A stretch of DNA of 64,000 bases from an uncultured Spirochaetota bacterium (GTDB lineage: Bacteria > Spirochaetota > Spirochaetia > SZUA-6 > Fen-1364). The notes beneath the pieces were generated by a model. That model searched no databases. It was not told the origin of the DNA and was given only the letters and a program-made list of their open reading frames with translations. This document shows, piece after piece, positions 33,088 through 52,322 of the stretch (the first letter of the stretch is position 1; every line of letters begins with the position of its first letter). The DNA is taken from contig CAWGAA010000002.1 in NCBI GenBank assembly GCA_963820525.1, forward strand, positions 320,001-384,000. Reading direction: 5' to 3'. The translations under genes and the position numbers were made by a program.

Positions 33088-33111
33088 TCGAACCCGCCAA
33101 TGCAGTCAGGA

Positions 33112-33125
33112 TGAAATCGTTTACA
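33112..33125. promoter_or_regulatory. LacI-family operator O1
   Basis: TGAAATCGTTTACA, just downstream of the operon promoter. Confidence 0.75.
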
Positions 33126-33140
33126 TTCTTCGAACATACT

Positions 33141-33169
33141 AACTTAATATGGTCGGTATGGATTGTCAA
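33141..33169 (-). promoter_or_regulatory. sigma70 promoter of the sugar ABC operon
   Basis: TTGACA-17 nt-TAAGTT on the minus strand, overlapping the LacI stop codon. Confidence 0.7.
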
Positions 33170-34218
33170 GCTTTTGCCGCCTTTAATGCCTTCAATTCAT
33201 CGCCCCCGGGCACAGCCTCGCTTGAGTGCCGTATGAGCTTGGTCGCAAAGCACAGGATCTCCGGGCTGCCGCGCCTGGTCCCGGTGAGCCGCTCGAAGAT
33301 CATGCGCGCCGCCGCGGCCCCCATCTCCGCGATGGGTTGGGAAACCGAGTAGCGGCAGAACTGAAGAAGCGGCGAGTAGGGCATCTCGTCGAAGGCGGCG
33401 AACACGATGCCTCCGGAGGCCTCCCGCCCGCGCGATAGGAGGTAGTCTGTCGCGCCGATATGAGTGTAGAGATTGACCGCGAAGAAGGCGTCGGGCCGGT
33501 TCGGCAGCGCCGACATCTCCTCCATGGCGTGGTAGCCCCATTCCATATGCGGCGGCCCGAAGCGTACGAAATCCGGTTCCAGGGCAAGCCCCGCCTCCTG
33601 CATTGCCTTCTTGTAGCCCTCGTAGCGCTCGCGTCCCGTCGATATATGAAGATCTCCTCCGATGAAGCCCACGCGCCGATAGCCATCCGCGATGAGGGCT
33701 GCGGTCGCCTCGTAAGCTCCTCCGCGGTTGTCGACCAGTACGGCGTCGGCCCTGCAATCGGAGACGACGCGGTCGATGAACACCAGGGGCGTGCCTCGCC
33801 TCTGGGCCGCGCGGATATGTCGCCCCTGGTCGGTGGCGGGGATCATCACGATGGCATCGGCAAGCCTTTCGGTGAGCAGCTTTATCCTCCGCTTCTCCTC
33901 CTCCACGTTCTCATAGGAGGAGCAGACCAGGAGGCTGTAGCCGTGCACGGCGAGCTTGCGTTCCATGCTTTCCACCAGGAGCATAAAGAAATCGCTTGAC
34001 AGCTCCGGCGCGATGACACCGACCATGCGGCTGGCCCTGGTCTTAAGGCTCCGCGCCACTTGGTTGATGTTGTAGGAAAGTCTTTCAATGGCCGAGCGGA
34101 CCTTCCTTTTGGTCCCCTCGGAGACCCGGGGATGATCGTTGAGCACGCGGGAGACGGTGGCGGTGGAAACCCCCGCCTCCCTGGCGACGTCCCGGATGGT
34201 CACAACGGCCTGCTTCAT
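33166..34218 (-). CDS. LacI-family transcriptional regulator
   Basis: TIRDVAREAGVSTATVSRVLN HTH, ARSL hinge, sugar-binding domain; start ATG 34218. Confidence 0.95.
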   Translation of the reverse strand: MKQAVVTIRDVAREAGVSTATVSRVLNDHPRVSEGTKRKVRSAIERLSYNINQVARSLKTRASRMVGVIAPELSSDFFMLLVESMERKLAVHGYSLLVCSSYENVEEEKRRIKLLTERLADAIVMIPATDQGRHIRAAQRRGTPLVFIDRVVSDCRADAVLVDNRGGAYEATAALIADGYRRVGFIGGDLHISTGRERYEGYKKAMQEAGLALEPDFVRFGPPHMEWGYHAMEEMSALPNRPDAFFAVNLYTHIGATDYLLSRGREASGGIVFAAFDEMPYSPLLQFCRYSVSQPIAEMGAAAARMIFERLTGTRRGSPEILCFATKLIRHSSEAVPGGDELKALKAAKA

Positions 34219-34240
34219 CCGATCCCTTAACCCGGCCCTC

Positions 34241-34269
34241 ATGATACGCGGATTGGCCGGAGAAGTCAA
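34241..34269 (-). promoter_or_regulatory. sigma70 promoter of the LacI gene
   Basis: TTGACT-17 nt-TATCAT on the minus strand. Confidence 0.75.
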
Positions 34270-34271
34270 GG

Positions 34272-34340
34272 TGTAATCGATTACATGGATCTTCACAGGG
34301 TTTTTAAGTGCTATTGCCCTTTCGAATGAAATCGTTACCA
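34272..34340. promoter_or_regulatory. Two further LacI-family operators (O2, O3)
   Basis: Perfect palindrome TGTAATCGATTACA (34272-34285) and TGAAATCGTTACCA (34327-34340), both matching O1. Confidence 0.75.
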
Positions 34341-34374
34341 CTGCTACATGAAGATGGGTCTGGGCCGGGGCAGT

Positions 34375-34896
34375 CTATAAAAGCCTTGAGAGAATATCGG
34401 CGGGAACGCTTTCACGGAGCCGGGGATAGGCTTCAATAATGCGGGCTATATCCGCCAGGTCTTTCTGCCGTTTGCTGCCCCGTCTTTCGGGATCCGAAGC
34501 CGCCCAGACTTTGCCCCGTAATACGTCCTCTATATCAGCGACGCTCATAACGCGTCCAAGCACTTCCTGTTTTCGCGCGTTCCCGATGAAGCCGGCGTAT
34601 TTGCGGTCCGTTTGTATCTGCACTCGGAGCTCCGATCCCGGAAGAGAGATGTTCAGGCTATGGGGGAAGGAAACGACCTTGAACAAGCTTCCCAATGATC
34701 GGGACAAATCTTCCATATTCTCGACCGCCACTACCACGTCGAGATCCAGGCTCACCAGGGGCTCGACGTATGCATTTACCGCCTGACCTCCGATGACGCA
34801 ATAGGGAATCTTTTTCTCTTCGAGGAAGCTGAGAAAGATGTCAAGAAAATCGCTCGTGTCCATTGTCACGATTCGCCTAAAGGTGGAAGCGAGCAT
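34375..34896 (-). CDS. Solo Pol-beta-superfamily nucleotidyltransferase (AbiEii/DUF6036-like)
   Basis: YCVIGGQAVNAY, SLDLDVV and K..A....R...K..KDLADI motifs; start uncertain (ATG 34896 or 34863); promoter TTGATC-17-TATGAT at 34952-34924. Confidence 0.75.
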   Translation of the reverse strand: MLASTFRRIVTMDTSDFLDIFLSFLEEKKIPYCVIGGQAVNAYVEPLVSLDLDVVVAVENMEDLSRSLGSLFKVVSFPHSLNISLPGSELRVQIQTDRKYAGFIGNARKQEVLGRVMSVADIEDVLRGKVWAASDPERRGSKRQKDLADIARIIEAYPRLRESVPADILSRLL

Positions 34897-35103
34897 GCCG
34901 GTTTCATTTGACCTCCGTGCAGTATCATAAGACGAGGCAGAGGAAGGATCAAGCGTGATATAGCTGCTCTGCGGCTGCCGCCGTTTTGAGAAGCGTCGGT
35001 GCAATGGAATAGGGGCGTCCGACCGCGTCGCGGTGCCTGGCCGCGCGTGCAGGTGCTCCCAATAGGTTTGACCACGGTGAGATCTCCGTATAGCCTACGC
35101 AAC

Positions 35104-36855
35104 ATGAACGCCGCCAGTAGCTTCCCTCCTCTTCGGATCATTGAAACTCTCAACGCATGCGCCTCCACGTCACGGATTCTCGCTTCCTTCGACGAGACGC
35201 TCTTGAAGTGGGCGGACAACGAAGAAAGCATGTATGAGCCGTTCCTCTGGCAGCTCGAGGAGCATGCGGATCTAGTGGGCTCGCTCACCGAAGAATGGGT
35301 TCACGCCACGGCCAATCAGTACGTAGCCGGAAAGTTATGCTCGGGCGGGCCCCTTCTTCTGCGCTGCATCCAGAGTCTTGGAAGCTCCCTCAAACCTGAT
35401 GCCTCCCGCCTGCTCGCTTCGTTCCTTGATACACCATGGAGGTACGCGCTTTTGAGCGTGAAGGGCGTGATCGCGGATACGCTTTTCTCCGTGCACGATT
35501 ATTTTTCAGGAGAAGAGCTTCTCCTCCAATCCGACAGTCTGGCGCACCTGAATAAGAGGGGAGTGCCGCTCGTTCTCACCCTGCTTTTCAACAACGGCCA
35601 TTGTTTTCAGACCTATGGGCCGCTGCACGCGCATATCGGTTTCGAGCCGTTCGATTTTCTCTTTTTCGCCCGGATGCTCGACTCCCGTCTGGCCGAGAGG
35701 AAAGGGCTTGGCGCTTGCATGGCACAGAACCCCATCCCTTTCTTTTTGCTTGATTGCGCTTCCCAGGTTCCTCCAATGGCCCACAATGGGAAGAGGGTTG
35801 TCTATTGCTTTCACTCGCTCAAGGCTCCCGGCTTCGATCTCGGAACTCTGCGCTCGCGCGGTCATTTCACCACAGAGAGCCGGGAATCAATGACGCGCCT
35901 CTGCCTGGACGGAAAGGACTCCCCATTCGATCTCGCACACGTCTATTACGACGGGAAGAACAGAGTTCTCGCCGTTCATACTTCGGGGATGGAAAACTAT
36001 GGCAGGCTCCGGGACCTTATTCTATCCGATATCGAGCTCCCCGAGCAGCCGTTCTGGATGTCCAGCGCGAATATGACCGCCACGGCCGGCCACGTTCTGA
36101 AAATGAAAGAACCCGAGGATGGCTTTTCGAGCGCGTTCGAAGAAGAGCCGACTCCGAAGGAAACGAAAGACCTTGAAACCATGAACGCCTTCATGCGGGA
36201 AGCGGCCGACCGTTCCAACTACGGTTTACCGATTTCCTACGAAGAGCTCGCTAGAAAACATGGTATCCCGCTTGAGACGGCCCGACAGGTACAAAAAATG
36301 ATGGATCGACAAGGGAAACGATTCTTCATTTCTCTCAAAGGGGGAATCCCGGGCTTCTCTCCGCCTCCTCCCGCCGTCAGAATGAAGATGAAGGGTCCGC
36401 TCGCTGAATCCGAGCTGTTTGTTTTCTCCTCCAGCGATCGCTCGCGGGAGCTGTTTCATGAGCACGATGCCGGTTTTACGGCCCTCGCCCGCACCGTGGG
36501 TAGAGAAGCTCCCGACTTTCAAGAAATGCCGGCCATCGTAGACGATCTCAGCCTGAAGCATTGGGTCGCGACCGACTCGACCATAGTCGCCTACTCGTTC
36601 ATTCTCTTCCTGGCGGCAGGAGAGGATTTCAAGCCGGCTGATGACTACGCTACCGAGATCCTGCGTCTTTTCTGGCAGGTCCTCATTCCGAACAAAGGGA
36701 AAAAGAGCATCCAGCGTTTTCTGGACAAGTACACGTCTTATTGCCAAAAGATCCTTGCCCCTGCCGGGCTTGTCGAGACCAAAGTGGGATCGGAGGGCAT
36801 GTGCCTCGCAAGGCGTACGCGGTTCTTCGAGGAGTGGGTGCAAATTGCCAAGTAG
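35104..36855 (+). CDS. Large hypothetical protein (~583 aa)
   Basis: Long ORF in lower-GC DNA; promoter TTGACC-17-TAGCCT (35068-35096) points to ATG 35104; HTH-like YEELARKHGIPLETARQ. Confidence 0.75.
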   Translation: MNAASSFPPLRIIETLNACASTSRILASFDETLLKWADNEESMYEPFLWQLEEHADLVGSLTEEWVHATANQYVAGKLCSGGPLLLRCIQSLGSSLKPDASRLLASFLDTPWRYALLSVKGVIADTLFSVHDYFSGEELLLQSDSLAHLNKRGVPLVLTLLFNNGHCFQTYGPLHAHIGFEPFDFLFFARMLDSRLAERKGLGACMAQNPIPFFLLDCASQVPPMAHNGKRVVYCFHSLKAPGFDLGTLRSRGHFTTESRESMTRLCLDGKDSPFDLAHVYYDGKNRVLAVHTSGMENYGRLRDLILSDIELPEQPFWMSSANMTATAGHVLKMKEPEDGFSSAFEEEPTPKETKDLETMNAFMREAADRSNYGLPISYEELARKHGIPLETARQVQKMMDRQGKRFFISLKGGIPGFSPPPPAVRMKMKGPLAESELFVFSSSDRSRELFHEHDAGFTALARTVGREAPDFQEMPAIVDDLSLKHWVATDSTIVAYSFILFLAAGEDFKPADDYATEILRLFWQVLIPNKGKKSIQRFLDKYTSYCQKILAPAGLVETKVGSEGMCLARRTRFFEEWVQIAK

Positions 36856-36953
36856 CCCCGCGGCGCATTATTCGGTTTTTCCGTCCCCTGGTGACATGAC
36901 GTGAGATACTATATGCTTAAAGGAACCTTTCATCACCGTCGGAGAGGACTTTC

Positions 36954-39900
36954 ATGGATCGGATTCAAAAAGGCAGCATCATCAGGGGCCCCGCAACCCC
37001 CGAGCCAGTTGAGGTCAAGCTTGTCGAAAAGGTGGGCGGCTATCTTCACATAGTCGGTGTGGGTACTCTTTCGGGGAACCATTCCGATTTCCTCATCGCG
37101 GCGGAAGATATGGACTCATACTCTTCTGATAACGCAGAGAAAGCTTTCTCTGAGGAAGCGTGGAAGGTGTTCCTGGGATTGGAGACGATCCGGTACCGCT
37201 TCGCATCTCTCTACGATCCACTGCTCGCGGTCAACACATCGAAGATCGATCCCCTGCCTCATCAAATCGAGGCCGTCTACGGCTACATTCTCAAGCTTCC
37301 CCGGATCCGTTTCCTGATCGCGGACGATCCCGGCGCCGGAAAGACGATCATGGCCGGGCTTGTCATCAAGGAGCTCAAGCTGCGGCGGGTGATCGACCGC
37401 GTTCTCATTGTCTGTCCCGGGCACCTGAAGGACCAGTGGAGAAGGGAATTATCCGAACGGTTCGAAGAGAAGTTCATCGTGATCGACAGGGGCATAATGG
37501 ATTCGCTCTACGGTGAGAACGCATGGAACAGGGAGAAGCAAATCATCACCTCCATCGACTTCGCCAAACGCGACGAGATATTGCCGTCTATCGCCGCGGC
37601 GCACTTCGACTTGGTCATCGTGGATGAAGCGCACAAGATGAGCGCGTACCAATACGGCGACAAGACCGAAAAGACCGGCCGCTACCGTCTGGGGGAAACG
37701 CTCTCCAGGATCTCGGATCACTATCTCTTCCTCACGGCGACCCCGCACCGTGGGGATCCGGAAAGCTTCCGGATGTTCCTGGACCTGCTGGAGCAGGGGT
37801 TCTTCGCCACGAGCGAGATGGTGCACGAATCCGTCCGCAACCGCGACAACCCTCTCTTCATACGAAGGATCAAGGAAGACCTGAAGGATTTCGAGGGCAA
37901 GCCCCTGTTCCTTCCGCGCTACGTGAAAACGATCGCATACGACCTGGGCACGAGATCGCCGGCGGAAAAGGACCTTTACAATGCCCTGTCCGAATACGTC
38001 GTGACGCAATACAACCTCGCTCTCTCGCGCGACAAGAAAAGAAACATCGCATTCGCCCTTGTCATCCTCCAGCGCAGGCTCGCCTCCAGCAGCTACGCCC
38101 TCCTGAAATCCCTGGAACGCAGGAAAGGACGCCTGGAGGAGCTTCTTAAAGGTGCGCAGGAAAGGTTGAGCTTCTCGGGGGAAATGCTCGATTTGGATTC
38201 CGCGGAAGATCTGAGCGAGGAGGAGAGGTGGCGGGAGGAGGAGATCTGGGAGTCCCTCAGCGTGGCGGAGAACAGGCAAGAGCTGGAGGATGAAATCTCC
38301 ACGCTGGAAAACCTCATTTCTCAGGCAAGGGCGATCATCCATGGGGAGAAAGAGATCAAGCTCATGGAGCTGAAAAAAACCGTCCACCGTCTGGAGACGG
38401 AAAATCCGAAGAAGGAGGAGCGAAAGATCCTGATTTTCACGGAATCGAGGGACACCCTGGATTACCTGGAAAGAAAGATGAAGGAATGGGGGTTCACGAC
38501 CAACGTCATCCACGGCGGCATGAAACTGGAGGAAAGGGTCCGGGCGGAAAGCGTGTTCAAGAACGAGACGGACATCCTGGTGGCCACCGAAGCGGCGGGG
38601 GAAGGCATCAACCTCCAGTTCTGCAACCTCATGATCAACTACGATCTTCCATGGAACCCCAACCGCCTGGAACAGAGGATGGGCCGCATCCACAGGTACG
38701 GCCAGACGCGGGAAGTGTGGGTATTCAATCTCGTGGCCGAGGATACCCGCGAGGGCAGGGTGCTGAAGAAGCTTTTCGAAAAGCTTGACGAGATCAGGAA
38801 GGCGATGGGAAGCGACAAGGTCTTCGACGTGATCAGCGACGTTCTCCCCAACGTCAACCTCTCCCAGCTCATGATGGACGCCGCGGCCAGGACCCGCAGC
38901 GTCGACGACATAATCGGGGAGATGGACGTGACCGTGGACGAGGAGTACATCCGCCGGGTCAAGGAGGAGCTGGGGGAGAGCCTCGCCACGCACTTCATCG
39001 ACTACACCCGGATAAAGGAGATGGCGAGAAAGGCCGAGGAATATCGCCTGATTCCTGAGTACACGGAAAACTACTTCCGCAAGGCTTTCCAGAGGGCTGG
39101 CGGGAGCGTCAGGGAGACGCGGGAAGGTTTTCTCGCGGTGGATTCCGTGCCGCACGCCATCCGCAAGGCGAGCGAGCGGGACGAAATCCTTAAGTCTTTC
39201 GGCGCCGTGCTCAAGCGGTACCCCAAAATGACGTTCGACAAGAAGGTGGCCTTCCACCATGCCGACGCTGAGTTTGTTTCCTTCGGTCACCCTCTTTTCG
39301 AGTCCGTCATGGCCTGGGTGGAGGCCGAGCTTATGGACTCGGTGCAGAACGGCGCGGTTTTCCTGGATCCGGACAGGCTCATGGACGGGCACAACCTTTT
39401 CTATGAGGGAGAGATCAGAGACGGCAATGGTGAGACCGCGGGCAAGAGGCTTTTCGCCTTGTATGCGAGGGACGATGACATGAAAGAAGTCCCTCCCTCC
39501 TTGCTTTGGGACCTCGCGGAAGGCACGGCGGCCGACCGCAATGAAACGCTGGACAGGGAAGGCCTGAAGTCGAGGGCTTCCGAAGCGGTGATAGCCTCTC
39601 TGGAAAAATACAGAACGGAGATCTCGAACGAACGTACGCGCCAGGCCGCGATCAAGAAGAAGTACGGCGTCAAATCTCTGGAGACCCTCATCCTGAAGCT
39701 CGACGGCGAGCTGATCCCGCTGAAAGACAGGCAGATGCGGGGTGAGAACGTGGACCTCGCGATACGGAACAAGGAGGAGAGAAAGGCGGAATACGAGCGC
39801 GCGTTGGCGGATCTCGAGCGCTTCATCGTGCGGGAGCAGAACCTCGTGATGTCAATGCCCCGGTTTCGCGGGATCGTGAGGGTGAAGCCCGGGACAAAGC

Positions 39901-40298
39901 CCGTTACCGACGCCGCCGCGGATCCCGAGGTGGAAAAGGCGGGCATGGACGCCGCGATGAGCTACGAGCGCAAAGAGGGAAGGGAGCCGGAGGACGTGTC
40001 GAGCGAGAACCTCGGGTTCGACATCCGGTCCAGGGAAAAGACCGGCGGATGCCGCTATATCGAAGTGAAGGCGAGGTCTGATGTGGGAGCGGTGGCCCTC
40101 ACCCAGAACGAATGGTTCAAGGCAAAGCGCTTCGGTGACGACTACTATCTCTACGCCGTCATGAACGCAAAGAAATTGCCGCAGCTGTTCCCGATCCGAA
40201 ACCCCGCATCCACGCTCCGCGCCGATGAAAGAGTAGAGGTGGTGCGCTACGTGATCGGGGCGGACCAGATTACGGAGAAAGCGGGGAAAAGGGATTGA
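36954..40298 (+). CDS. SNF2-family helicase with C-terminal DUF3883 PD-(D/E)xK nuclease-like domain
   Basis: [33 protein letters not shown] and [12 protein letters not shown]-terminal DVS..GFDI..YIEVK..TQNE. Confidence 0.92.
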
Positions 40299-43009
40299 CC
40301 GAAGCGCCGCGAGGCCCCCGTTTCATCGAAGAATCCTTTCCCGTCAAGGAAGTGGGCGCGGAGTCCGCGCGGGAGAAGAACATCCGGCACGGCCACATCT
40401 CCACGCTTCACATCTGGTGGGCGCGCCGCCCTCTGGCCTCTTCCAGGGCGACGGTGTATGGGGCCCTGGTGCCGACGCCGGAGACGCCCGATGACGTACG
40501 GAACACCAGGCAATTCATCATCGATTTCTCCAAGTGGGAGAACTCCCTCAATCCAACCATGATTCAAAGGGCCCGCCGGGACATCCTTGCGGCCGGCGGC
40601 GGAAGGTCTCCCCGGGTGCTCGATCCGTTCGGCGGCGGGGGAGCCATTCCCCTTGAAGCGCTCAGGCTGGGATGCGAGACGTACTCGGGAGACCTCAATC
40701 CCGTGGCGGTGCTGATCCAGAAATGCACCCTGGAGTACCCGCAAAAGTTCGGAAAGCAGGGCCCGGTCGTGCAGGAAGGCGAGGTGATCGGAAGCGCGCA
40801 CAAGCATGCTGTCAACGCGGAGAACAGGCTCCTGGAGGACGTGAAGAGATGGTCCGGCAGGGTCCTGAAGGAAGCGAAAGCCGGGCTTTCCCGATTCTAC
40901 CCCTCCGATCCCGACGGCTCAACTCCTGTTGGCTATATCTGGGCGCGGACCATCCCCTGCCAGAATCCCGCCTGCGGGGCGGAGATTCCCCTCATGCGCC
41001 AGTTCTGGCTGGCAAAGACGTCAAGTAAAAAGGTGAGCCTGTTCCCCTTCGTCAAGGCCGGCAGCGTCCTTTTCCGCATCGTGGGGGACGCATACAAGGA
41101 GATGCCTGCAGGCTTCGACCCGGAGGAGGGAACGGTTTCCCGGGCCGTGGCGAGGTGCCCGGTCTGCGGGTCCATGTCGGACGACACGACAACACGAAAG
41201 CTATTCCAGGAAGGGAAAGCCGGGCAGAGGATGATCGCCGTTGTCCTACTTAAGGAAGGACGGACGGGAAAAAGGTACAGGATATCGACTGAAGAGGATG
41301 AGGCCGTGTTCCTGGGTGCGGAAAAGGCGCTGGAGGGGAAGAGCGCCCTGCTCCGGGAAGAGTGGGGCATGGAGCCTGTACCGGATGAGCCGCTTCCGCC
41401 CGCGCGCACGCTCGGATTTAGAATACAGAACTACGCCATGAACACCTGGGGCGACCTGTTCAACTCACGGCAGAAGCTGGCGCTCATCATCTTTGCGGAC
41501 GCGGTGCGCCGCGCGTACAATGGGATGATCGCCGAGGGGTATGAGGCGGAGTACGCCAGAGCGGTAGTGGGGTATTTAGGAATATTGGTGGATAGGCTGG
41601 CAGATAAATCCGGCGTTCTTGTAAGGTATAACTCAGCTGCAGAGAAAATTGAAGGTGTCTTTGGTCGTCAGGCACTCCCAATGTTATGGGATTATGTTGA
41701 GACCAATCCCTTCACGGATGTCGGCTGGCACAACATGCAGGAGTGGATCGAACAGATCATCCAGCACTGCTCCCAAATCGAGCAGCCGGCGCACGTAACT
41801 CAATCTTCCGCAATCGCCCTGCCGTACGCCGACTCGTTCTTTGACGCCGTGTTCACCGATCCTCCCTACTACGATAATGTTCCCTATTCCTATCTCTCCG
41901 ATTTCTTCTACGTCTGGCTCAAGCGGACGATCGGAGACGCCTTTCCGGAGCTTTTTTCCACGCCCCTCACGCCCAAGAAAAGCGAGATCGTCGCGTACTC
42001 GGAAGGCGTCGGAGGATTCGAGGAGGGCAAGCGCCGGTTCGAGGAGATGCTGAAAAAATCGTTTCAGGAAATCCACAGGGTATTGAAACCCGACGGCGTT
42101 TCCCTGATCGTGTATGCCCACAAGTCCACGGCCGGATGGGAGACCCTCATCAACTCGCTCCTCGATTCGGGCCTCATCATGACGGGCGCCTGGCCGATCA
42201 ACACGGAGAAAGTAGGAAGGATGCGCTCTCAAGAATCCGCGGCCCTCGCATCCTCCATATACATCGTATGCCGCAAGATGACCCGCAAGCCCACGGGGAT
42301 TTACAGCGAAGTGAAGGAGGCGCTCGTCAATCACCTCGATCTAAAATTGGAGAAGCTCTGGGGAGAGGGAATCGGCGGGGCGGATTTCTTCATCGCGGCA
42401 ATCGGCTCGGCCATAGAAGTGTTCGGGAAGTTCGAGAAGGTCATCGACTTCGAGGGCACCACTGTGCGCGCGGACAGGCTGCTGGAGGACATTCGCCTGA
42501 TCGTCACCGATTTCGCGGTCCGCCGAATATTGAAAAACGGCTTTGCGGGGGAAATAACCGACCTGACGCGGTTCTACGTCCTCTTCCGCTGGGAGTTCGG
42601 AGAGTCGAGGGTCGGGTTCGACGAGGCGCGGAAGCTCGCCCAGAGCTGCGGAATCGATCTGGCCCTGGAATGGAACCGGGGCGGATTCATAATGAAGGAG
42701 AAAGAGCTCATACGCGTCATCGGCCCCCAGGAAAGGAAAGCGGAGAAGCTGAAGGACTCCACGGAGCTCATCGACGTGCTCCACCGCTGCCTGCTCCTGT
42801 GGGAGAAGAGCCGGAGGGACGAGATGATCCAGGCCCTCACGGAGTCCGGTTTCGGCAAGAGCGAGGCTTTCTTCCGCGTGGCCCAGGCGGTCTCTGAGAC
42901 GCTGCCGACGGAGAGCAGGGAGAAGAAGCTCCTGGACGGGTTCCTCTCGGGAAGGGAGAGGCTTCAGGAAACCGCGCGGCGAAGCTCTCGGCAGGGGGAG
43001 CTTTTCTAG
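40295..43009 (+). CDS. DUF1156 adenine-specific DNA methyltransferase
   Basis: [10 protein letters not shown], motif I DPFGGGG, motif IV DPPY, Cys pairs CQNPAC and CPVC; TTG start overlapping the helicase stop. Confidence 0.92.
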
Positions 43010-43039
43010 GGTAGTATGACGGCAGTCGAGGTATAAGGG

Positions 43040-44254
43040 ATGAATGTTATCGCCAAACCGGCGCGGACCGTACCGAGGATCGAATACCTTCGTGTGCAGA
43101 ACTACCGTGCCTTGTGCGACATCGAACTCAAGGGATTGAAGCCTCTCACTGTTTTTCTCGGGCCTAATGGCAGTGGGAAATCCACGGTCTTCGATGTGTT
43201 CGCTTTCCTGGCTGAGTGTTTCACGATCGGGCTTCGTCGGGCATGGGACAAGCGGGGGCGCTTCAAGGAGCTTCGCACCAGAGGCCAGGAAGGACCCATC
43301 GTCATTGAGCTGAAATACAAGGAGAGCCCGAGCATTCCGACAATCACCTACCACATGGCGATAGACGAAGGCGACGGCGGGCCGTATATGGCCGAGGAAT
43401 GGCTCAAATGGAAAAGACAGAGCTATGGTAAGCCTTTCAATTTCCTCGATTTCCGGGGAGGTGCGGGAGAAGTCATTTCCGGGGAACTGCCCGACGAGAC
43501 GGACAATCGGGTATCCGAAAAACTCGAATCTCCCGAGCTTCTCGCCGTGAGCACACTCGGACAGCTTGCGAAGCATCCCCGCGTGAGCGCTCTGAGAAGG
43601 TTCATTACGGGATGGCATCTGTCGTATCTGAGCGCGGACGCCACACGCGGCCATCCCGAAGCCGGTCCTCAGGAGCGGCTTTCAACGACGGGGGACAACC
43701 TGCCAAACGTTATTCAGTATCTCAAGGAACAGCATCCTGAACGTCTTGAGCGGATATTAAAGACCCTTTCCTCAAGGATTCCCCGTTTGGAGAAAGTCAG
43801 CGCGGAAACCATGCAGGACGGAACCCTTCTCCTCCAGATCAAGGACGCTCCCTTCGAACGGCCGGTGCTTGCCCGTTTCGCTTCGGACGGCACGTTGAAA
43901 ATGCTCTCATACCTGACGCTCCTCTACGATCCAACTCCGCCGGAGCTTATCGGCATCGAGGAGCCCGAGAACCATCTCCATCCCAGACTTCTTCCGGAGC
44001 TTGCCGAGGAATGTAGAATCGCATCGAGCGGGACACAGCTTCTGATTACCACCCATTCTCCGTTTTTCGTGAACGGCCTGCAACCCGAAGAGTTGTGGGT
44101 CTTATTCCGTGACGAAAAAGGCTTTACGGGAGCGCGCTGCGCCGCGGACATGAAGGGGGTCAAGGAGTTTATGGAGGAAGGCGCCCAGCTTGGCTATTTG
44201 TGGATGGAAAGCCATTTCGAAGTCGGGGATCCGCTCGCTAAACCGAAGGACTGA
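43040..44254 (+). CDS. Soluble ABC/AAA_21-type ATPase
   Basis: [19 protein letters not shown] signature, [10 protein letters not shown] and TTHS; no TM partner. Confidence 0.9.
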
Positions 44255-44262
44255 CCGGGCGC

Positions 44263-44892
44263 ATGAGAATCGAAGTGATAGTCGAAGAACCTTCCGCCGA
44301 AGCCGCCTTGCAGAATATCTTGCCGAAAATGATTCCGGTTGGATCAAGCTTCAAGATTCATGTGCATCAGGGCAAGCAGGACCTGCTCTCAAAGCTTGTG
44401 AGCCGCCTACGCGCGTACCGCAAGCACATTGCCAAAGATGACAGGCTTATGGTTCTCGTGGACAGAGACAGGGAGAATTGCCACAGCTTGAAGAAAAAAA
44501 TGGAAAACGCAGCAGAAAAGGCGGGGCTTGTATCGAAATCGAAAGCGAAAGGGAAGACCTTTCACGTCATGAACAGGCTCGCAATTGAGGAGTTGGAGGC
44601 CTGGTTTTTCGGGGATCCGCAGGCTATTTCGGAAGCATTCCCGAAAATACCGGTATCCGTCTTCAATAGAGAGCCATATCGGATTCCCGATTCTATCAAA
44701 GGAGGAACGGCGGAAGCCCTCGAGAGGGTGCTCAAGCAGTACCGATACTATCCCAGCGGCATGCCCAAGATCGAGGTTGCTCGCGCGATCTCCTCACGCA
44801 TGGATCCTTCGCGTAACATTTCGAAAAGCTTCAAAGTATTCAAGAAAGGGATCGAAGTCCTCACGGGCTGTAAGGAAGCAATCCATGATTGA
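44263..44892 (+). CDS. DUF4276-family protein (TOPRIM-like, putative nuclease)
   Basis: N-terminal VIVEEPS, HQGKQDL, LVDRD, EELEAWF and N.SKSF. Confidence 0.8.
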   Translation: MRIEVIVEEPSAEAALQNILPKMIPVGSSFKIHVHQGKQDLLSKLVSRLRAYRKHIAKDDRLMVLVDRDRENCHSLKKKMENAAEKAGLVSKSKAKGKTFHVMNRLAIEELEAWFFGDPQAISEAFPKIPVSVFNREPYRIPDSIKGGTAEALERVLKQYRYYPSGMPKIEVARAISSRMDPSRNISKSFKVFKKGIEVLTGCKEAIHD

Positions 44893-45205
44893 CCGCCAGG
44901 AAATGCTGGATAAAGCCATACGCATTATCGTTTCAGCGTCGGATCCCGATAGAATCATCCTGTTCGGATCTCGCGCGCGGGGCGAGGTTTTCGCCGGCGG
45001 CGATTACGATCTTTTCGTTCTGAAGAAGGGCATGCGGGATCCACGGAGGGTCGCGCAGAAAATCTACATGGGTCTCGCCGGCTTCGGCGCTCCGGTCGAC
45101 GTCATTGTGGAAGACGAGGAGAAATACGAGCGGCTGAAAGACGATCCGTACCTCATCTACCACGCGATCGCGGCGGAAGGCAAAGTCATATATGAAAAAT
45201 CGTGA
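44885..45205 (+). CDS. Minimal nucleotidyltransferase (MNT)
   Basis: ILFGSRARG, DYDL, VDVIV and EGKVIYE; start ATG 44885 (MIDRQEML), 106 aa. Confidence 0.9.
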   Translation: MIDRQEMLDKAIRIIVSASDPDRIILFGSRARGEVFAGGDYDLFVLKKGMRDPRRVAQKIYMGLAGFGAPVDVIVEDEEKYERLKDDPYLIYHAIAAEGKVIYEKS

Positions 45206-45587
45206 ACACGCGGTTGAATGGCTGCACAGGGCGAGAAGCAGCCTTCTTCAGGCCAGGCTTGGCAGATCGGAGCCTGGGATACTCATTGAAGATCTCTGTT
45301 ATCACGCGCAGCAGGCGGTCGAAAAGGCCCTGAAAGCGGTCTGTATTCATATAGGAATAGATGTGCCCAAGGTTCACGACATTGGGTTTTTAATCGATCT
45401 GCTCGCCGCCAATTCCATGCATCTTCCCGAAGAGCTCAACATCGCGCGAACGCTGACGGTCTATGCCGTCACCACCCGCTATCCCGGCGATTACCCTCCC
45501 GTGTCCGAGGCGGATTACGCTTCAGCGATTGAGACGGCGGAGAATGTAGTCCGCTGGGCTTCCCGGGAAATCGAGGGAGCTTTATGA
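45192..45587 (+). CDS. HEPN-domain protein (MNT partner)
   Basis: W..RA, CYHAQQAVEKALKA, KVHDI and TRYPG. Confidence 0.9.
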   Translation: MKNREHAVEWLHRARSSLLQARLGRSEPGILIEDLCYHAQQAVEKALKAVCIHIGIDVPKVHDIGFLIDLLAANSMHLPEELNIARTLTVYAVTTRYPGDYPPVSEADYASAIETAENVVRWASREIEGAL

Positions 45588-48100
45588 AGCCTTTCCACAC
45601 TGTTGCCGTTCCTCACCGGGATATCCTCGAAGGCCGTCTCACGATGGACGTTTTCGCGGCGGACCTCTGGCAGGTGTGCCGTCGCCAGGGTCCCGACGAG
45701 TACCGCGACGCGGATACCTTCTTTCGAAAGACGTTCGTCACGCAAGGGTTGCAGAACCTTCTTGATATCGTGGAGAAGAGGCTTGCGGGCCGGGGCGGGG
45801 ATCCCGTCATACAGATCCAGACGCCTTTCGGCGGGGGGAAGACCCATTCGCTCATCGCGATGTACCACAAGGCCGTTGAATGGCGCGCGAAGCAGGTCGT
45901 GATGGTCGGAACGGCCCCCGGCGGACAAAAAACCCTTTGGGGGTGGCTCGAAGAGCAGCTTACGGGGAAGATCGACGCGCTTTCCGGTCCCGTATCACCC
46001 GGGAAAATCGCCCTTCTCAAGCTCCTCGAACAGCACCAGCCCGTGCTCATTCTGATGGACGAAATCCTCGAGTACGCGGTGAAGGCGGCAGGCACGAAAG
46101 TCGGAGAGAGCACTCTCGCCGCCCAGACTCTCGCCTTCATACAAGAGCTGGGAGAAACGGTGAGCGGCCTTGACAAAGCGTGTCTTGTCGTCACGATCCC
46201 TTCCAGCGTCGCTCCCCTGTACGACCAGAACGCCGAAAGGCTATTCCTGGGATTGCAGATGGTGGCGGGGCGGATCGAGAAGATCTACACCCCCATCGCC
46301 GACAGCGAAATCGCGAGCATCATCCGGAGCCGGCTTTTCAGCTCGTTCGATCAGCCGAAGGCGAAGGAGGTCGTGGACTCTTTCATCGAATACGCGGAAA
46401 GAGAAGGCATTCTTCCGTTCGGCTCGAGCGCGGGCGAATATCGCGACCGGTTTCTCGCGTCGTATCCGTTCATGCCCGAAGTGGTCGATGTTCTCTATCA
46501 GAGGTGGGGCAGCTTCGGTACTTTCCAGAGAACCCGGGGAGTGCTGAGGCTTCTCTCATTGGTCGTGCATACACTCAGGAATAGCGCCAAGACGTATATC
46601 GGTCTTTCGGACTTCGATCTGGGCAACCAGGAAATACGGCAGGAGCTGCTGAAGCATATAGGATCGGAGTTCAACAGCGTGATCGCCTCGGATATCACGG
46701 AGCCCTCCAGCGGCGCCCAAAAAGTCAACGGTTCCCTTGGAAACGCGTATCGAGGGCTGTCCCTGGGCACGAGCGCCGCGACATCGATTTTCCTCTATTC
46801 CTTTTCCGGCGGGCACGAACGGGGGGCCACGCTGGCCGAAGTTAAAAGAGCCGCGACCACCACGGAGAATCCCGCGAGCGTGGTCGCCGAGGCCGTGGAG
46901 CAGCTCAAGGCACGGCTTTTCTTCATGCAGAGCGTCGGAGAAAGACTCTTTTTTTCAAACAAGCCCAATCTCAATAAGACGCTTTTAAACCGGATCGAGA
47001 ACCTTGACGACAGCGAGGTGATCGAAGCCGAACGGGAGCTGCTCATATCGTGCCTTTCGCGCCAGAAGCTCAAGGTAACCGTCTGGCAGGATGATCCCGC
47101 TCAAATCCAGGACACCGATTCGCTTCAGCTCCTGATATTGAGAGACCGCCAGGAGGAGGTGATGAAGGACATTATTCGGAACAAGGGCCAGACTCCCCGG
47201 GTGTACGGCAACGCCCTTTTTTTCCTCTATCCCCACGACAATGAGAAAACCGCATTATCCGCAGCGCTCAAAAAAAGAATGGCGTACGAATCGATAGAGG
47301 AAGATCAGGATTTCCCGCTGACCGAGGAACAGCGACGGGAGCTCGCGAAAGTGCTGAAGAAGTGCAGGATAAGCGCGAACGAAGCGCTTCGCAGAGCGTA
47401 TCGAATGGCGGCAGTCCCGTCGAAAGACGGCTTGCGTGAAATAGACCTCGGAGTACCGACCTACGGCGAGAATAAAAACATTGACGACGGGGTATACGAC
47501 AAGCTGCGGTCGGAAGGGCTTCTGTTGGAGAACCTGGCTCCTCTGGTGATCCGTGAGAAATATCTGGCCGGAAAAGAGTATGTGAGCACCGAGGCCATTT
47601 TCCAATCCGCTCTGAAGACCCCGGGAGAACCCAGGCCAATCTCGAAATCGGCAATCGAAAAAGGAATCCGTGAAGGCGTGAAAAGCGGCCTCTTCGGCTT
47701 GGGAGAGTTGGAAGGGGTTGATGCGAAGTGTCTGTTCTTTCAGACGGAACCTTCAGTAGCGTTCGGCGGCAAGGAAGTGCTTATCTGCGACGCGAAATGC
47801 GTGGAACAGAAGAAAAGCGAGCCGATTCAAGCGCCCTTGTCTCCATCCGGAGCACCGACCGCCAAGGTGTCTTCCCACCCGCAGCCGGGTCGAAGCGGCA
47901 AAACCTCGATCGTGATATCGTTTCGAGTGCCCAAGGGCAAAGTCAGCTCCATTATGGGCGTCATGAACTACCTCCAAAGCAGGTTCGAAGGTCTGGATAT
48001 TACGTTAACAGCAAGCGGCGGCGAGATCACGCTTCAAGAATACGACGACAAAGTCATGGAAGCGTTCCGACAGGCGGGAATAGAGGTGAGAGAGGGGTGA
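45584..48100 (+). CDS. DUF499-family AAA+ ATPase
   Basis: PHRDI, FAADL, QTPFGGGKTH, LMDE, YPFMPE and FQRTRGVLRLL; ATGA overlap with the HEPN stop. Confidence 0.9.
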   Translation: MKPFHTVAVPHRDILEGRLTMDVFAADLWQVCRRQGPDEYRDADTFFRKTFVTQGLQNLLDIVEKRLAGRGGDPVIQIQTPFGGGKTHSLIAMYHKAVEWRAKQVVMVGTAPGGQKTLWGWLEEQLTGKIDALSGPVSPGKIALLKLLEQHQPVLILMDEILEYAVKAAGTKVGESTLAAQTLAFIQELGETVSGLDKACLVVTIPSSVAPLYDQNAERLFLGLQMVAGRIEKIYTPIADSEIASIIRSRLFSSFDQPKAKEVVDSFIEYAEREGILPFGSSAGEYRDRFLASYPFMPEVVDVLYQRWGSFGTFQRTRGVLRLLSLVVHTLRNSAKTYIGLSDFDLGNQEIRQELLKHIGSEFNSVIASDITEPSSGAQKVNGSLGNAYRGLSLGTSAATSIFLYSFSGGHERGATLAEVKRAATTTENPASVVAEAVEQLKARLFFMQSVGERLFFSNKPNLNKTLLNRIENLDDSEVIEAERELLISCLSRQKLKVTVWQDDPAQIQDTDSLQLLILRDRQEEVMKDIIRNKGQTPRVYGNALFFLYPHDNEKTALSAALKKRMAYESIEEDQDFPLTEEQRRELAKVLKKCRISANEALRRAYRMAAVPSKDGLREIDLGVPTYGENKNIDDGVYDKLRSEGLLLENLAPLVIREKYLAGKEYVSTEAIFQSALKTPGEPRPISKSAIEKGIREGVKSGLFGLGELEGVDAKCLFFQTEPSVAFGGKEVLICDAKCVEQKKSEPIQAPLSPSGAPTAKVSSHPQPGRSGKTSIVISFRVPKGKVSSIMGVMNYLQSRFEGLDITLTASGGEITLQEYDDKVMEAFRQAGIEVREG

Positions 48101-48141
48101 GATCCCCCGATACACGGTATCGAGAGCATGTATATCGAAGG

Positions 48142-50700
48142 CTACTCGTACCTCAGCGCCTCTACGATCTGCAGGCGCGCGGCCTGCCTGGCCGGCACGA
48201 TGGCCGCCAGGGCGCCGAAGAACAATCCGAAAAACACGGCGGTGAGCATTCCGGCGATCGGGAAGGCGAAGCCGAGAGGGAAGATGTCCTTTATCGCGGA
48301 CACGAAGGCGTCGCCGAGATAGAGGCCGCCCAGAAGCCCGAAGGCCGTTCCGATGGCGGCAAGAAGAAGGGCTTCGGCCAGCACCATCCCCCGGATCTGG
48401 CCCCGTGTCGCTCCCACCGCTCGGATCATGCCGATCTCCCGGGTGCGTTCGATGACGCTGATGGCGAGGGTATTGATCATCGCGATGAGCGACGGCAAGG
48501 CAAGAAAGGCGAAGAGCAGATATATTCCCGAGAGGGCGGCGTTCATCTGGTCCTTGATCGAATTGTAGAAGGTCCGTCCCCGGATCATCTGGAACTGGGG
48601 GTAATCATGGCTAACCGCCTTGATCCCGCGCTCGGCAGCCTCCGCGTCGGCGCCCGGTTTCAGGTTCAGCTGGAGGAAAACATCCTCCTCCTTGCCGAAA
48701 TCGGAAAACAGATTCGCCTGAGAAATGAACGCGGAGGGTGCCTTAGCGTTCAGAAGGTCCGCGGCCAGTGCGGCCACGCGATACTCCACGGAACCGCCCG
48801 GACCGAGGAGCGTCACCATCTGGCCGACCTTTGCGCCGCTGGCCTTCAGGAAAACGCCGTTTGCGATGAGCGCCCTCCCCTTGGAGATTTCCCCGTACGC
48901 CGAATCGTTTCCCTGCAGGAAATACAATCCTCCTACCTTCGGAAATGCCACGGGGTCCACGCCCAGAAGCGAGACCGCTTGTCCCTTCACGCTTGAGCCT
49001 GCGTAGCGCATTGTGGCCACCTCGCTCACTCCGTCTATGCCCCGAAGCCTGCGGGCGAACTCCGGGCCCGCCCCGATATCGCTGCTCCAAACGCTGATGG
49101 CCGGCGGGACGAACAGGTAATCGCTTCCCATATTTTTCTGCATCAGCTCGTTGAGTGGGACGGTAAGGCTGGAGAGCAGGCCGCCGGCGGCCACGATCAC
49201 CGCCAGCCCCAGCATGGTGGATGATGCCGTGACCGCCGTCCGCATCGACTGGCGCTTGATGTTGCCGCACGCGATCTCGCCGATTCCCTGCCGTGCGTAG
49301 ATGGCCGCGATGAGCCTTCCGAATATGCCGGCGAGGGGAGTCACCAACGTCGGCGCCACAAGCACCAGACCGACAAGGAAGAGAAGCCCGCCGGGAACGA
49401 TCACTGCAGGCTTCCCTGAAAAGAGCGCAATCGTGGAGAGCGCTATGACGAGCGCTCCGGCGACGAATCCCGGGCTTATCCGCCGCAGCAGGCCCGATTG
49501 CGCGGCCATCGGTCTCATGGCCTCCAGGGGAGTCACTCTGCCGGCGTTTCGCGCGGGAAGAAGCGCGGCAAGGACCGTTATCCCCACGCCGAGCAGAACG
49601 CAGCCGACCACCAGAAGGGGAGAGACAACCGGGGCGCTGATTTTCAGGTTGATGTACCGGCTGAGATAGGGAGAGGCCAGCTTGACGCCCCCAACCACGA
49701 GCGCGTATCCGAGAGCCAGCCCCACTGCGCTTCCCAGGAGCCCTTGCAAGGTCCCTTCGGCGATGATCATCCCGATTATCGTCCGGCGGTTTGCTCCAAT
49801 GGCGCGCAGCATTCCGATGTCGCGCCTGCGCTCGGCCACCACGGTGCGGAAGGTGTTGAAGATGATGAAGCCGCCCATGAAAAGGGCCAGGACTCCGAAG
49901 AGATTGAAGGCAGCCTGCGCCGTTTTTATGTTTTCGTCGAACGCCTCGGTCCCGGAGATGAGAGTGCCCACGCGGAACTCGACGCCCAGGACGTCCTGGA
50001 CTGCTTTCTGGATTCTCGCGCGCTGGGCCTCGGAAGTGAAGGGGTTTACGATATCGATCTCAATCCTATTGACCCTTCCGTCCTCCCCCGTCATGAGCCC
50101 GGCCTGCTTCAGCGTGACGAGCACTTCCTCGGCGCCGGGTTTGAGGCGGGGAGGCAGGATCCCGACCACCTTCAAGTCGGTCACACCGTTGACCGAGGGG
50201 ATGGGGAGCACCTCTCCCACCTTGAGGTCGAGCGTGTCCGCGAGAGTCTGGGAAATGACCGCCGAAGCGCCGTCCGATGGCTCCAGGAATCTGCCCGAAA
50301 CCACGGGAAACGGGAGCAGCGCCCGCTCGGCCTCTGGATCTATGCCGGTGAGCGAGAGCGCCGAAATCCTGTCCGGCTTCTTCGGGTCTTTGTCGTAAAA
50401 GTCCGCGGGGAGATTCACCGTGCGATTGAGGGAAGCGGAAACGGCACGGATCCCTTCCATCCGCGCCACCGCGGGCAGGATGTCCGCTGAGAAGGAGCCG
50501 CTCGTGATGCGGGTGGCCGTGAAATCGACCGCGCCGTGAGCCGCCAGCATGTTCGCCCCGAGCGCTTTGGTCATGGTGGGCAGGATGGTGTTCATCGCGA
50601 ATATGACGAGCACCCCGAAAACGACGGCGAGAGTTGTGAGCACGGTGCGCAGCCTGCGCCCGTTCAGATAGCGCCAGGCAAGACTGAACTGAAGCCTCAT
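48142..50700 (-). CDS. Duplicated FtsX/MacB-type ABC permease
   Basis: Two repeats of TM, large periplasmic domain and ERRRDIGMLRAIGA / ERTREIGMIRAVGA; ends EALRYE. Confidence 0.92.
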   Translation of the reverse strand: MRLQFSLAWRYLNGRRLRTVLTTLAVVFGVLVIFAMNTILPTMTKALGANMLAAHGAVDFTATRITSGSFSADILPAVARMEGIRAVSASLNRTVNLPADFYDKDPKKPDRISALSLTGIDPEAERALLPFPVVSGRFLEPSDGASAVISQTLADTLDLKVGEVLPIPSVNGVTDLKVVGILPPRLKPGAEEVLVTLKQAGLMTGEDGRVNRIEIDIVNPFTSEAQRARIQKAVQDVLGVEFRVGTLISGTEAFDENIKTAQAAFNLFGVLALFMGGFIIFNTFRTVVAERRRDIGMLRAIGANRRTIIGMIIAEGTLQGLLGSAVGLALGYALVVGGVKLASPYLSRYINLKISAPVVSPLLVVGCVLLGVGITVLAALLPARNAGRVTPLEAMRPMAAQSGLLRRISPGFVAGALVIALSTIALFSGKPAVIVPGGLLFLVGLVLVAPTLVTPLAGIFGRLIAAIYARQGIGEIACGNIKRQSMRTAVTASSTMLGLAVIVAAGGLLSSLTVPLNELMQKNMGSDYLFVPPAISVWSSDIGAGPEFARRLRGIDGVSEVATMRYAGSSVKGQAVSLLGVDPVAFPKVGGLYFLQGNDSAYGEISKGRALIANGVFLKASGAKVGQMVTLLGPGGSVEYRVAALAADLLNAKAPSAFISQANLFSDFGKEEDVFLQLNLKPGADAEAAERGIKAVSHDYPQFQMIRGRTFYNSIKDQMNAALSGIYLLFAFLALPSLIAMINTLAISVIERTREIGMIRAVGATRGQIRGMVLAEALLLAAIGTAFGLLGGLYLGDAFVSAIKDIFPLGFAFPIAGMLTAVFFGLFFGALAAIVPARQAARLQIVEALRYE

Positions 50701-51419
50701 TGGGGTCTCCTCTCGGATCGATTCCCGCTTTCACGCTCGAGGGCAGTTTCATCAACTATGGCGCCGTCCTTGAGAAAGACGATGCGGTCGGAATACGCGG
50801 CGATTCGCGGATCGTGAGTCACCATGACCACGGCTCTGCCGTACTCCTTGGTGACCTGGCGGAGGAGGGAAGCGATGCCGTCGGCGCTTCGCGTGTCCAG
50901 GTTTCCCGTCGGCTCGTCGGCGAGGACCAGCGCCGGTTCCGCCACCAGCGCGCGGGCGATGGCCACGCGCTGCTGCTGCCCGCCGGAGAGCTGATCGGGG
51001 CGGCTTTCAAGCCGATCCTCCAGCCCGAAGCGCTTCAGCCATTCAACGGCGAGCTTTTTCGCCTCCGCGGGCTTCATCCCGTCCAGGGTCATGGGCAGGG
51101 CGGCGTTCTCCGCGATGCTCAACACGGGGATAAGGTTGTAGAACTGGAATACCAGGCCGATCCGCCTTCTGCGAAGCCTGGCAAGCTCGTTGTCCTTCAT
51201 CTCCGAAAGACAGGCGCCGTCGATCGAGATTTTTCCTTCCGTGGGTCGGTCCAGGCCGCCCAGCAGGTGCAGGAGGGTGGATTTCCCGCATCCGCTGGGG
51301 CCCATTACCGCCACGAACTGTCCCGCGTCGATTTCCATGGACACGTGGGAAAGCGCCGTCACGGAAGCCTCCCCGGAGCCGTAGATCTTGGTGAGGTTTT
51401 CAGTGCGGATCAGTGCCAT
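50697..51419 (-). CDS. MacB/LolD-type ABC ATP-binding protein
   Basis: [22 protein letters not shown] and ADEPTGNLD. Confidence 0.95.
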
Positions 51420-52005: not shown

Positions 52006-52070
52006 AAATACTCTACAAGTGAGTAGATTACGGATTAATTAATAAACGAGTTAGTAGATTATGTCAAGTA
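52006..52070 (-). promoter_or_regulatory. PadR operon promoter with candidate operator repeats
   Basis: TTGACA (52067-52062)-17-TATTAA; AGTAGATTA repeated at 52022 and 52053; inverted TCTAC-N6-GTAGA at 52012-52027. Confidence 0.6.

Positions 52071-52249: not shown

Positions 52250-52322
<73 letters not shown>

What the first reader, a model, noticed from the sequence alone, without database searches (positions are those of the whole stretch)
36954..48100. Seven-gene layered defence operon: restriction-like core with two nested toxin-like modules
Seen: seven co-oriented genes, with 4-14 nt start/stop overlaps at four junctions and gaps of only 30 and 8 nt at the other two. The order is SNF2-DUF3883, DUF1156 MTase, AAA_21 ATPase, DUF4276, MNT, HEPN, DUF499 ATPase. 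Known (from memory): a DUF499 ATPase, DUF3780, DUF1156 methylase and nuclease-SNF2 helicase make up the anti-phage 'restriction-like' system of Gao et al. 2020. This locus has no DUF3780, carries its predicted nuclease as a C-terminal DUF3883, and has four cargo genes between the MTase and DUF499. Inference: a methylation-based self/non-self system backed by co-expressed abortive-infection or dormancy effectors, analogous to PrrC or Rlo genes inside type I R-M loci. I do not know a described system with this seven-gene architecture.
Basis: partly seen in the sequence, partly recalled or inferred. Interest (0 to 1): 0.9.

Follow-up and report, generated by a model that had tools for sequence, protein, structure and literature searches.

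The report
Hma defence operon with embedded cargo
This is an intact copy of the already described Hma anti-phage operon carrying two already catalogued add-on gene pairs in its known insertion hotspot; it likely marks the cell's own DNA by methylation and nicks unmarked phage DNA, with the add-ons likely acting as independent back-ups, so it is mostly ordinary.

Summary
The seven genes and their overlaps are exactly as described. The core is not an odd Gao restriction-like system: its best PADLOC matches are HmaA, HmaB and HmaC, i.e. Hma/Type-1 BREX-related, which normally lacks DUF3780 and has a C-terminal DUF3883 nuclease. Genes 3-4 are HEC-01 (Hma-embedded candidate 01); genes 5-6 are a class II MNT/HEPN pair without the RX4H RNase motif. 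Embedding is published: 62.7% of 1,485 Hma systems carry cargo. In 90 close loci, 44 of 76 resolvable hmaB-hmaC slots are empty and 32 hold at least ten cargo types. The closest relative has Hma+HEC-01 without MNT/HEPN; the next has MNT/HEPN without HEC-01. None has both, so the seven-gene order is one draw from a swappable slot, not a new system. One side result: the HEPN gene is repeatedly broken while its MNT stays intact (4 of 10 loci, about 3 events, plus a near-identical strain; p about 0.09). That is a weak hint that this uncharacterised HEPN class is a real toxin.

The parts
36954..40298 (+). hmaA: SNF2 helicase with C-terminal NOV_C/DUF3883 PD-(D/E)xK nuclease (Walker A GAGKT 127, DEAH 224, motif VI 574; predicted nuclease D1023, E1037, K1039, E1053)
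   Evidence: PADLOC HmaA 1.3e-205 over 2-1075; Pfam NOV_C 993-1080; motif positions; role of the nuclease residues inferred from the similar pattern reported in PMC11232893, not aligned to that protein
40295..43009 (+). hmaB: DUF1156 amino-methyltransferase (motif I at 110, DPPY at 522), predicted N6-adenine
   Evidence: PADLOC HmaB 4.3e-131; motifs
43040..44254 (+). HEC-01A ABC ATPase (Walker A 41-48, Walker B 304-311, H-loop at 339)
   Evidence: PADLOC HEC-01A 6.1e-168 over 12-397; motifs
44263..44892 (+). HEC-01B DUF4276, TOPRIM/OLD-like nuclease fold; E8, E9, D67, D69 invariant in 26 aligned sequences
   Evidence: PADLOC HEC-01B 1.9e-82; alignment; model pLDDT 91; top four Foldseek hits are OLD C-terminal regions, E 7e-4 to 2e-3
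44885..45205 (+). MNT minimal nucleotidyltransferase with exact GSX10DXD motif (G28, S29, D40, D42)
   Evidence: Pfam Polbeta/NTP_transf_2; PDB 7ae2 MNT antitoxin E 2e-4; motif
45192..45587 (+). HEPN-T / class II HEPN (PF05168); no R-x4-6-H; H62 and R96-Y97-P98-G99 invariant in 7 slot homologues
   Evidence: fold matches ST0689, TT1696, AF0298, TM0613
45584..48100 (+). hmaC: DUF499 AAA+ ATPase (Walker A K86, Walker B D159-E160), without the N-terminal Swt1-HEPN fusion
   Evidence: PADLOC HmaC 1.9e-111; Pfam shows DUF499 only; K86, D159, E160 invariant in 9 aligned sequences

Best explanation
The locus is an Hma (Type-1 BREX-related) operon whose hmaB-hmaC insertion hotspot holds two separable cassettes, HEC-01 and a class II MNT/HEPN pair; HmaB, likely loaded by the HmaC ATPase, is predicted to methylate adenine in a short host sequence, HmaA is predicted to nick unmethylated incoming DNA, and the cassettes likely act as independent back-ups. 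Shown here: gene identities, intact catalytic motifs, and that the slot is empty or differently filled in relatives. Inferred from homologues: HmaA nickase defence (shown for Halomonas HmaA against T4); ATPase-loaded hemimethylation (shown only for the Type-2 relative MANTIS/Gao_RL); ATPase-gated TOPRIM nuclease action for HEC-01 (by analogy to OLD/PARIS); MNT-dependent neutralisation of a toxic HEPN (shown only for class I pairs). The simplest history is that HEC-01 was inserted between hmaB and an existing MNT/HEPN cassette.
For: Best PADLOC hits are HmaA/B/C and HEC-01A/B, nearly full length. Hma is defined as helicase-methylase-ATPase (PMC8565338); 931 of 1,485 Hma systems have embedded genes and HEC-01 was defined from them (bioRxiv 2024.01.29.577857). 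Of 90 close loci, 76 show the end of hmaB: 44 slots empty, 32 filled with class II MNT/HEPN, class I MNT/HepT, ABC-ATPase pairs, Schlafen, PDDEXK_3, PIN, Y1 transposase-like genes and others. L022 aligns with the window over 37119-44851 (76%) and 45574-48101 (73%); the gap is the MNT/HEPN pair. HmaC tree: (L065 with MNT/HEPN only,(window, L022 with HEC-01 only)), support 0.997; the window HEPN groups with L065's, 0.934. HEC-01 homologues also occur with no Hma gene in the 1.5 kb flanks (L159-L161). In Liu 2024 Table S7, 18 DUF4276 rows and 19 PF05168 rows lie near hmaA and share no genome.
Against: No function was tested. MANTIS methylation needs DUF3780/MtsB, which this locus lacks, so the loading model may not transfer. 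In Halomonas, HmaA alone protected with a dormancy-like phenotype, and passage through HmaB-overexpressing cells did not change T4 infectivity, which argues against simple methylation-based self/non-self. The original Hma paper predicted HmaB as an m5C enzyme. [quoted passage not shown] The trees are midpoint-rooted FastTree runs, so the order of events is parsimony only. Base composition is not clearly foreign (GC 0.574, 14th percentile of 451 genome windows).
Confidence: 0.8

Rival explanations
1. The seven genes are one integrated, layered system in which HEC-01 and/or HEPN are triggered by the state of the Hma core, for example when a phage anti-restriction protein blocks it (PrrC- or PARIS-like guard).
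For: Overlapping start/stop codons across the cargo. PARIS-like OLD-ABC+TOPRIM modules are proposed as back-ups in BREX/BR loci. The HEPN gene sits directly before hmaC, where many Type-1 BR systems have a fused Swt1-HEPN (1370 of 2446 taxa).
Against: 0 of 90 close loci carry both cassettes; 44 of 76 resolvable slots are empty; at least ten cargo types use the slot. The closest relative lacks MNT/HEPN. HEPN-T is a different family from Swt1-HEPN.
Confidence: 0.12
2. The MNT/HEPN pair (and perhaps HEC-01) is a passenger: a small selfish or stress TA-like cassette that lands in a permissive operon junction and adds nothing to phage defence.
For: The genome has 2 more PF05168 genes outside any Hma locus (3 in all). 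The HEPN lacks R-x4-6-H, and class II pairs had no biochemical study (PMC7641770). HEPN is broken in 4 of 10 loci where both genes can be seen. PDC-S09, the MNT's weak best PADLOC match (4.6e-7), was tested and was not among the four protective candidates.
Against: 14 of 32 filled slots carry an MNT/HEPN-type cassette, and seven of nine Hma-embedded candidates tested were protective. This rival is compatible with the best explanation for the core.
Confidence: 0.3
3. It is a derivative of the Gao restriction-like (MANTIS, Type-2 BR) system that lost DUF3780 and replaced its nuclease.
For: Shares DUF499, DUF1156 and an SNF2 helicase.
Against: No DUF3780 (present in 98% of Type-2), no PLD/HKD domain on the helicase (Pfam), scores far below the NCBIfam cut-offs, much better Hma scores.
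Confidence: 0.03

Closest known systems
Hma system (PMC8565338; PMC11232893) = Type-1 BREX-related system (bioRxiv 2025.10.09.681413 / PMC12839542)
   Same: hmaA-hmaB-hmaC order; SNF2 with C-terminal NOV_C nuclease; DUF1156 MTase; DUF499 ATPase; cargo between hmaB and hmaC (an AAA_21 pair sits there in all Halomonas loci).
   Different: HmaC lacks the N-terminal Swt1-HEPN; belongs to a subgroup whose 49-76% identical relatives are in uncultured lineages; this particular four-gene cargo.
HEC-01 (bioRxiv 2024.01.29.577857)
   Same: Adjacent ABC ATPase + DUF4276/TOPRIM genes, embedded in Hma.
   Different: Nothing found; here it is followed by a second cassette.
[quoted passage not shown]
   Same: GSX10DXD in MNT; HEPN without RX4HXY, with D in place of H, an alternative upstream His and a conserved Tyr; clustering with R-M operons noted in 2013.
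   Different: Nothing at family level; toxicity and target of class II were not reported in the papers I read.
MANTIS / Gao_RL (bioRxiv 2026.09.23.753747)
   Same: Homologous DUF499 ATPase, DPPY methyltransferase and SF2 helicase-nuclease; best mechanistic model available.
   Different: Needs MtsB (DUF3780-type) and uses a PLD nuclease; both absent here.

Membership tests
Hma / Type-1 BR | Co-located HmaA, HmaB, HmaC genes | tested here: met
   Best PADLOC hits 1e-205, 4e-131, 2e-111
Hma / Type-1 BR | Helicase with C-terminal PD-(D/E)xK (NOV_C) nuclease | tested here: met
   PF13020 at 993-1080; D/E-x-K/E residues present
Hma / Type-1 BR | PADLOC system rule (gene separation limit) calls the locus as Hma | not testable with these tools
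   Only HMMs were available. The embedding paper allowed up to three genes between hma genes (legend); this locus has four between hmaB and hmaC, so that pipeline might not have counted it
Hma / Type-1 BR | DUF499 in the Type-1 clade | not tested
   No reference Type-1/2/3 sequences were put in my trees
Hma / Type-1 BR | Anti-phage activity and DNA methylation | not testable with these tools
   Needs bench work
Gao restriction-like / MANTIS / Type-2 BR | DUF3780 gene | tested here: not met
   No such Pfam hit among the 11 proteins scanned; no room in the operon
Gao restriction-like / MANTIS / Type-2 BR | N-terminal PLD/HKD nuclease on the helicase | tested here: not met
   No PLD Pfam hit; NF042964 138 bits vs cut-off 1100, best stretch in the helicase region only
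HEC-01 | Adjacent HEC-01A ABC ATPase and HEC-01B TOPRIM genes | tested here: met
   OLD-like fold; acidic residues invariant
Class I HepT/MntA (type VII TA) | RX4HXY motif in HEPN | tested here: not met
   No R-x4-6-H in the protein
Class II HEPN/MNT | PF05168 next to PF01909 with GSX10DXD | tested here: met
   definition
Class II HEPN/MNT | HEPN toxic and neutralised by MNT | tested here: inconclusive
   Only indirect: HEPN broken with MNT intact in 4 of 10 loci, the reverse in 0 of 10; p 0.09-0.17 after merging related events

The most novel reading that the evidence does not exclude
The class II HEPN here is a true toxin with a non-canonical active site (H62 plus R96), held in check by MNT adenylylation of a conserved tyrosine, and serves as an RNase back-up for an Hma core whose ATPase lacks the usual fused HEPN. 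This locus would be a snapshot of cassette turnover, holding both the older MNT/HEPN and the newer HEC-01 layer, and a ready test case for the uncharacterised class II HEPN/MNT family.
Probability: 0.25. Interest if true: 0.55.

Novelty: new member of a known kind. Interest (0 to 1): 0.25.

Why it matters
As a system it adds little: core, hotspot and both cassettes are catalogued. Its use is as test material. Hma methylation has not been shown in the papers I read, HEC-01 has conflicting phage results, and class II HEPN/MNT had no biochemistry. This locus, with natural relatives lacking one cassette or the other, lets all three be tested side by side.

Tried and rejected
Gao restriction-like membership: rejected. 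Fixed seven-gene architecture: not found in 90 close loci, in 46 distant viral-contig loci (no HEC-01B, MNT or HEPN hit), or as co-occurring Pfams in Liu 2024 Table S7 (about 0.3 co-occurrences expected by chance, so absence says little). Mobile-element signs: no convincing att-like repeat in 33000-53000; composition not an outlier; no integrase among the neighbours scanned. Promoter/terminator scan at chance level. HEPN-HmaC(1-480) complex prediction: no verdict, score 0.00, not evidence either way. Expression: no RNA holder listed among 18 runs. The first HmaC tree did not finish and FastTree was used instead. Upstream 618-aa ORF as an eighth member: no homologue in the 90 loci. HEC-01B had no PDB sequence match. 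Searches for class II HEPN/MNT biochemistry (passages) and for newer Hma mechanism papers found none beyond those cited. The supplements of the BR paper could not be read and those of the bioRxiv embedding paper are closed; either may list this exact cassette combination. Gao 2020 was not read.

Full report
Observation. Pfam confirms each domain call. Each gene is single-copy by tblastn in the 5.05 Mb genome, although two more distant PF05168 genes exist elsewhere. The host is probably a spirochaete: this is inferred from the Atlas neighbours of the upstream gene and from recall; no call names it.

Identity of the core. PADLOC's best models are HmaA (1.3e-205, residues 2-1075), HmaB (4.3e-131) and HmaC (1.9e-111); its DUF1156_MTase and DUF499 models score only 2e-37 and 1e-35. 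NCBIfam equivalogs for the anti-phage DUF1156, DUF499 and PLD proteins score 169, 155 and 138 bits against cut-offs of 1000, 1200 and 1100. Hma was defined as a three-gene helicase-methylase-ATPase operon (PMC8565338, passages). A later survey calls it Type-1 BREX-related: tripartite, C-terminal PD-(D/E)xK nuclease on the helicase in 79% of taxa, while DUF3780 and the HKD nuclease mark Type-2 (bioRxiv 2025.10.09.681413, passages and part of one section). The architecture DUF499 + SNF2-DUF3883 + methylase was already tabulated in 2013 (PMC3710099, passages).

Identity of the cargo. Genes 3-4 match HEC-01A (6e-168) and HEC-01B (2e-82). HEC stands for Hma-embedded candidate: 931 of 1,485 Hma systems (62.7%) had embedded genes in 376 cassette types, and HEC-01 is an ABC ATPase plus TOPRIM protein that gave no protection in that study (bioRxiv 2024.01.29.577857, parts 1-3 of 5 read). 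A cold-seep HEC-01 did protect against at least one phage (bioRxiv 2024.09.26.614923, passages). My model of gene 4 (pLDDT 91) has OLD nuclease C-terminal regions as its top four Foldseek hits (weak E-values, 7e-4 to 2e-3), and E8, E9, D67 and D69 are invariant in 26 aligned sequences (25 of the 120 listed homologues plus the query). Genes 5-6 are an MNT with exact GSX10DXD and a PF05168 HEPN with no R-x4-6-H, folding like ST0689, TT1696 and AF0298. This is class II HEPN/MNT, described as lacking the RNase motif and biochemically unstudied (PMC7641770, passages; PMC11586414, passage).

The slot. I took 10 of 11 genome loci (L021, a 61-residue match, was dropped) and the best 80 of 548 metagenome loci. 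These 90 loci form 82 clusters at 95% identity. In 76 the end of hmaB is visible: 44 have an empty slot (<150 nt) and 32 have cargo. I scanned 69 ORFs chosen by eye (67 of the 129 listed, plus two more from L022) against Pfam. Tally of the 32 (categories overlap): class II MNT/HEPN intact 5, broken 4; class I MNT/HepT 7; other ABC-ATPase pairs 5; HEC-01 orthologue 1; Schlafen 3; PDDEXK_3 4; PIN 3; Y1-like 2; DUF4258 pairs 2; TPR-bearing NTPase-like 1; unassigned 1. Four loci stack two or more cassettes. None carries both HEC-01 and class II MNT/HEPN. The closest locus, L022, aligns continuously over window 37119-44851 and again over 45574-48101, lacking just MNT/HEPN, and homology ends at the hmaC stop. 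L065, sister to window+L022 in the HmaC tree (0.997), has MNT/HEPN only, and its HEPN groups with the window's (0.934) (79 rows with at least 500 aligned residues; midpoint root). Parsimony suggests MNT/HEPN came first, HEC-01 was added, and L022 then lost MNT/HEPN; this was not formally tested. In Liu 2024 Table S7 (supplement searched), 18 DUF4276 rows and 19 PF05168 rows lie within ten genes of hmaA, in no shared genome.

Distribution. A close HmaC (E <= 1e-120) was found in 0 of 24 other family genomes, 2 of 91 other order genomes and 2 of 400 phylum genomes; many are incomplete. The closest named records are an archaeon and KSB1, Omnitrophota, Bacteroidota, Anaerolineae, Scalinduaceae, Firmicutes and Poribacteria genomes at 51-62%. 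This patchiness fits horizontal transfer, but composition does not flag the region and no att site was seen.

Mechanism. Shown for homologues: Halomonas HmaA alone restricts T4, needs helicase motif VI and the NOV_C residues, and its C-terminal domain nicks supercoiled DNA (PMC11232893, abstract and whole Results). For the Type-2 relative MANTIS (formerly Gao_RL), the DUF499 ATPase loads the DPPY methyltransferase, which hemimethylates asymmetric 6-bp sites, and the helicase-nuclease restricts best at inverted unmodified pairs (bioRxiv 2026.09.23.753747: abstract, introduction, first results section, discussion, passages). All corresponding motifs are intact in the window. I infer the same logic here, with HmaA nicking in place of PLD cleavage. 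Against this: MANTIS needs MtsB, absent here, and HmaB overexpression did not alter T4 infectivity in the Halomonas work.

Side result on the HEPN. Among 10 loci where both class II genes can be assessed, all MNT frames are open; HEPN is intact in 6 and cut short or internally deleted in 4 (L017, L026, L039, L098). L039 differs from the 99% identical L045 by a deletion of about 240 bases inside HEPN. L026 and L098 are 92-94% identical, so this is about three events. A contig in run X2, 98% like hmaC, joins 45218 to 45584 with 23 other letters, removing most of HEPN (about 34 letters on the short side, likeness threshold 90). Class I pairs, where HEPN is a proven toxin, show the same pattern in L031 and L011. 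With length weighting, p is 0.17 for three events and 0.09 for four: suggestive only. Run X1 holds an intact-HEPN piece across the hmaC junction; X3 matches at 99+% and may be the source sample.

Verdict. A real, intact, correctly described operon, but a new member of a known kind: Hma with two known cassettes in a published hotspot. The exact seven-gene string was not found in my samples, and supplements I could not read may list it. Interest 0.25.

Noticed in passing
L098:1334-8545 (between hmaB and hmaC): A 7.2 kb type III CRISPR effector module (Cmr1, Cmr6-like, Csx11, Cmr4 and two unassigned ORFs) sits inside the Hma slot where the HEPN gene is cut; L026 is the same locus at 92-94% without it.
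   Followed up: partly
L024:8567-10004; L026:4344-5807; L064:8389-10004; L092:1113-2656; L098:8496-10004: A recurrent ABC ATPase plus ~155-aa partner directly before hmaC. The partners tested (L024, L064, L092) had no Pfam or PADLOC hit; possibly an uncatalogued embedded pair.
   Followed up: partly
window 40206; 40856-42708; 45218-45584 (run X2 contigs): A near-identical strain or strain mix shows a 1-base deletion near the end of hmaA, a joint skipping most of hmaB and a joint skipping most of HEPN, while a contig over 43128-44619 (HEC-01) has no gaps. Contigs are unphased and another contig covers part of the skipped hmaB region.
   Followed up: partly
window 34999-36855 (+): 618-aa ORF 98 nt upstream of hmaA with no Pfam, PADLOC or NCBIfam hit; nearest Atlas cluster (0.89, lead only) is a 619-aa hypothetical protein mostly from Spirochaetota. 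Not found in the 90 Hma loci.
   Followed up: partly
window 34375-35004 (-): Small nucleotidyltransferase-like ORF (weak PADLOC AbiEii hit, 3e-4); a 51% homologue lies downstream of hmaC in L034.
   Followed up: partly
L022:14861-17767 (-): A second, divergent DUF499 gene about 4.4 kb downstream of the Hma locus on the opposite strand.
   Followed up: no
L100:1167-9958: Two large TPR-bearing NTPase-like proteins (1287 and 1464 aa; AfsR-like NCBIfam hits below cut-off) fill a 9.3 kb hmaB-hmaC slot.
   Followed up: partly
G037 C1: One complete genome of the same order has distant DUF499 matches at five separate chromosomal places.
   Followed up: no
window 52250-59515: tRNA-Thr(GGT), tRNA-Trp, nusG, ribosomal protein genes and rpoB lie about 4 kb downstream, beyond a PadR-like/ABC/FtsX cluster (ribosomal, nusG, rpoB and PadR names recalled from the translations).
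   Followed up: no
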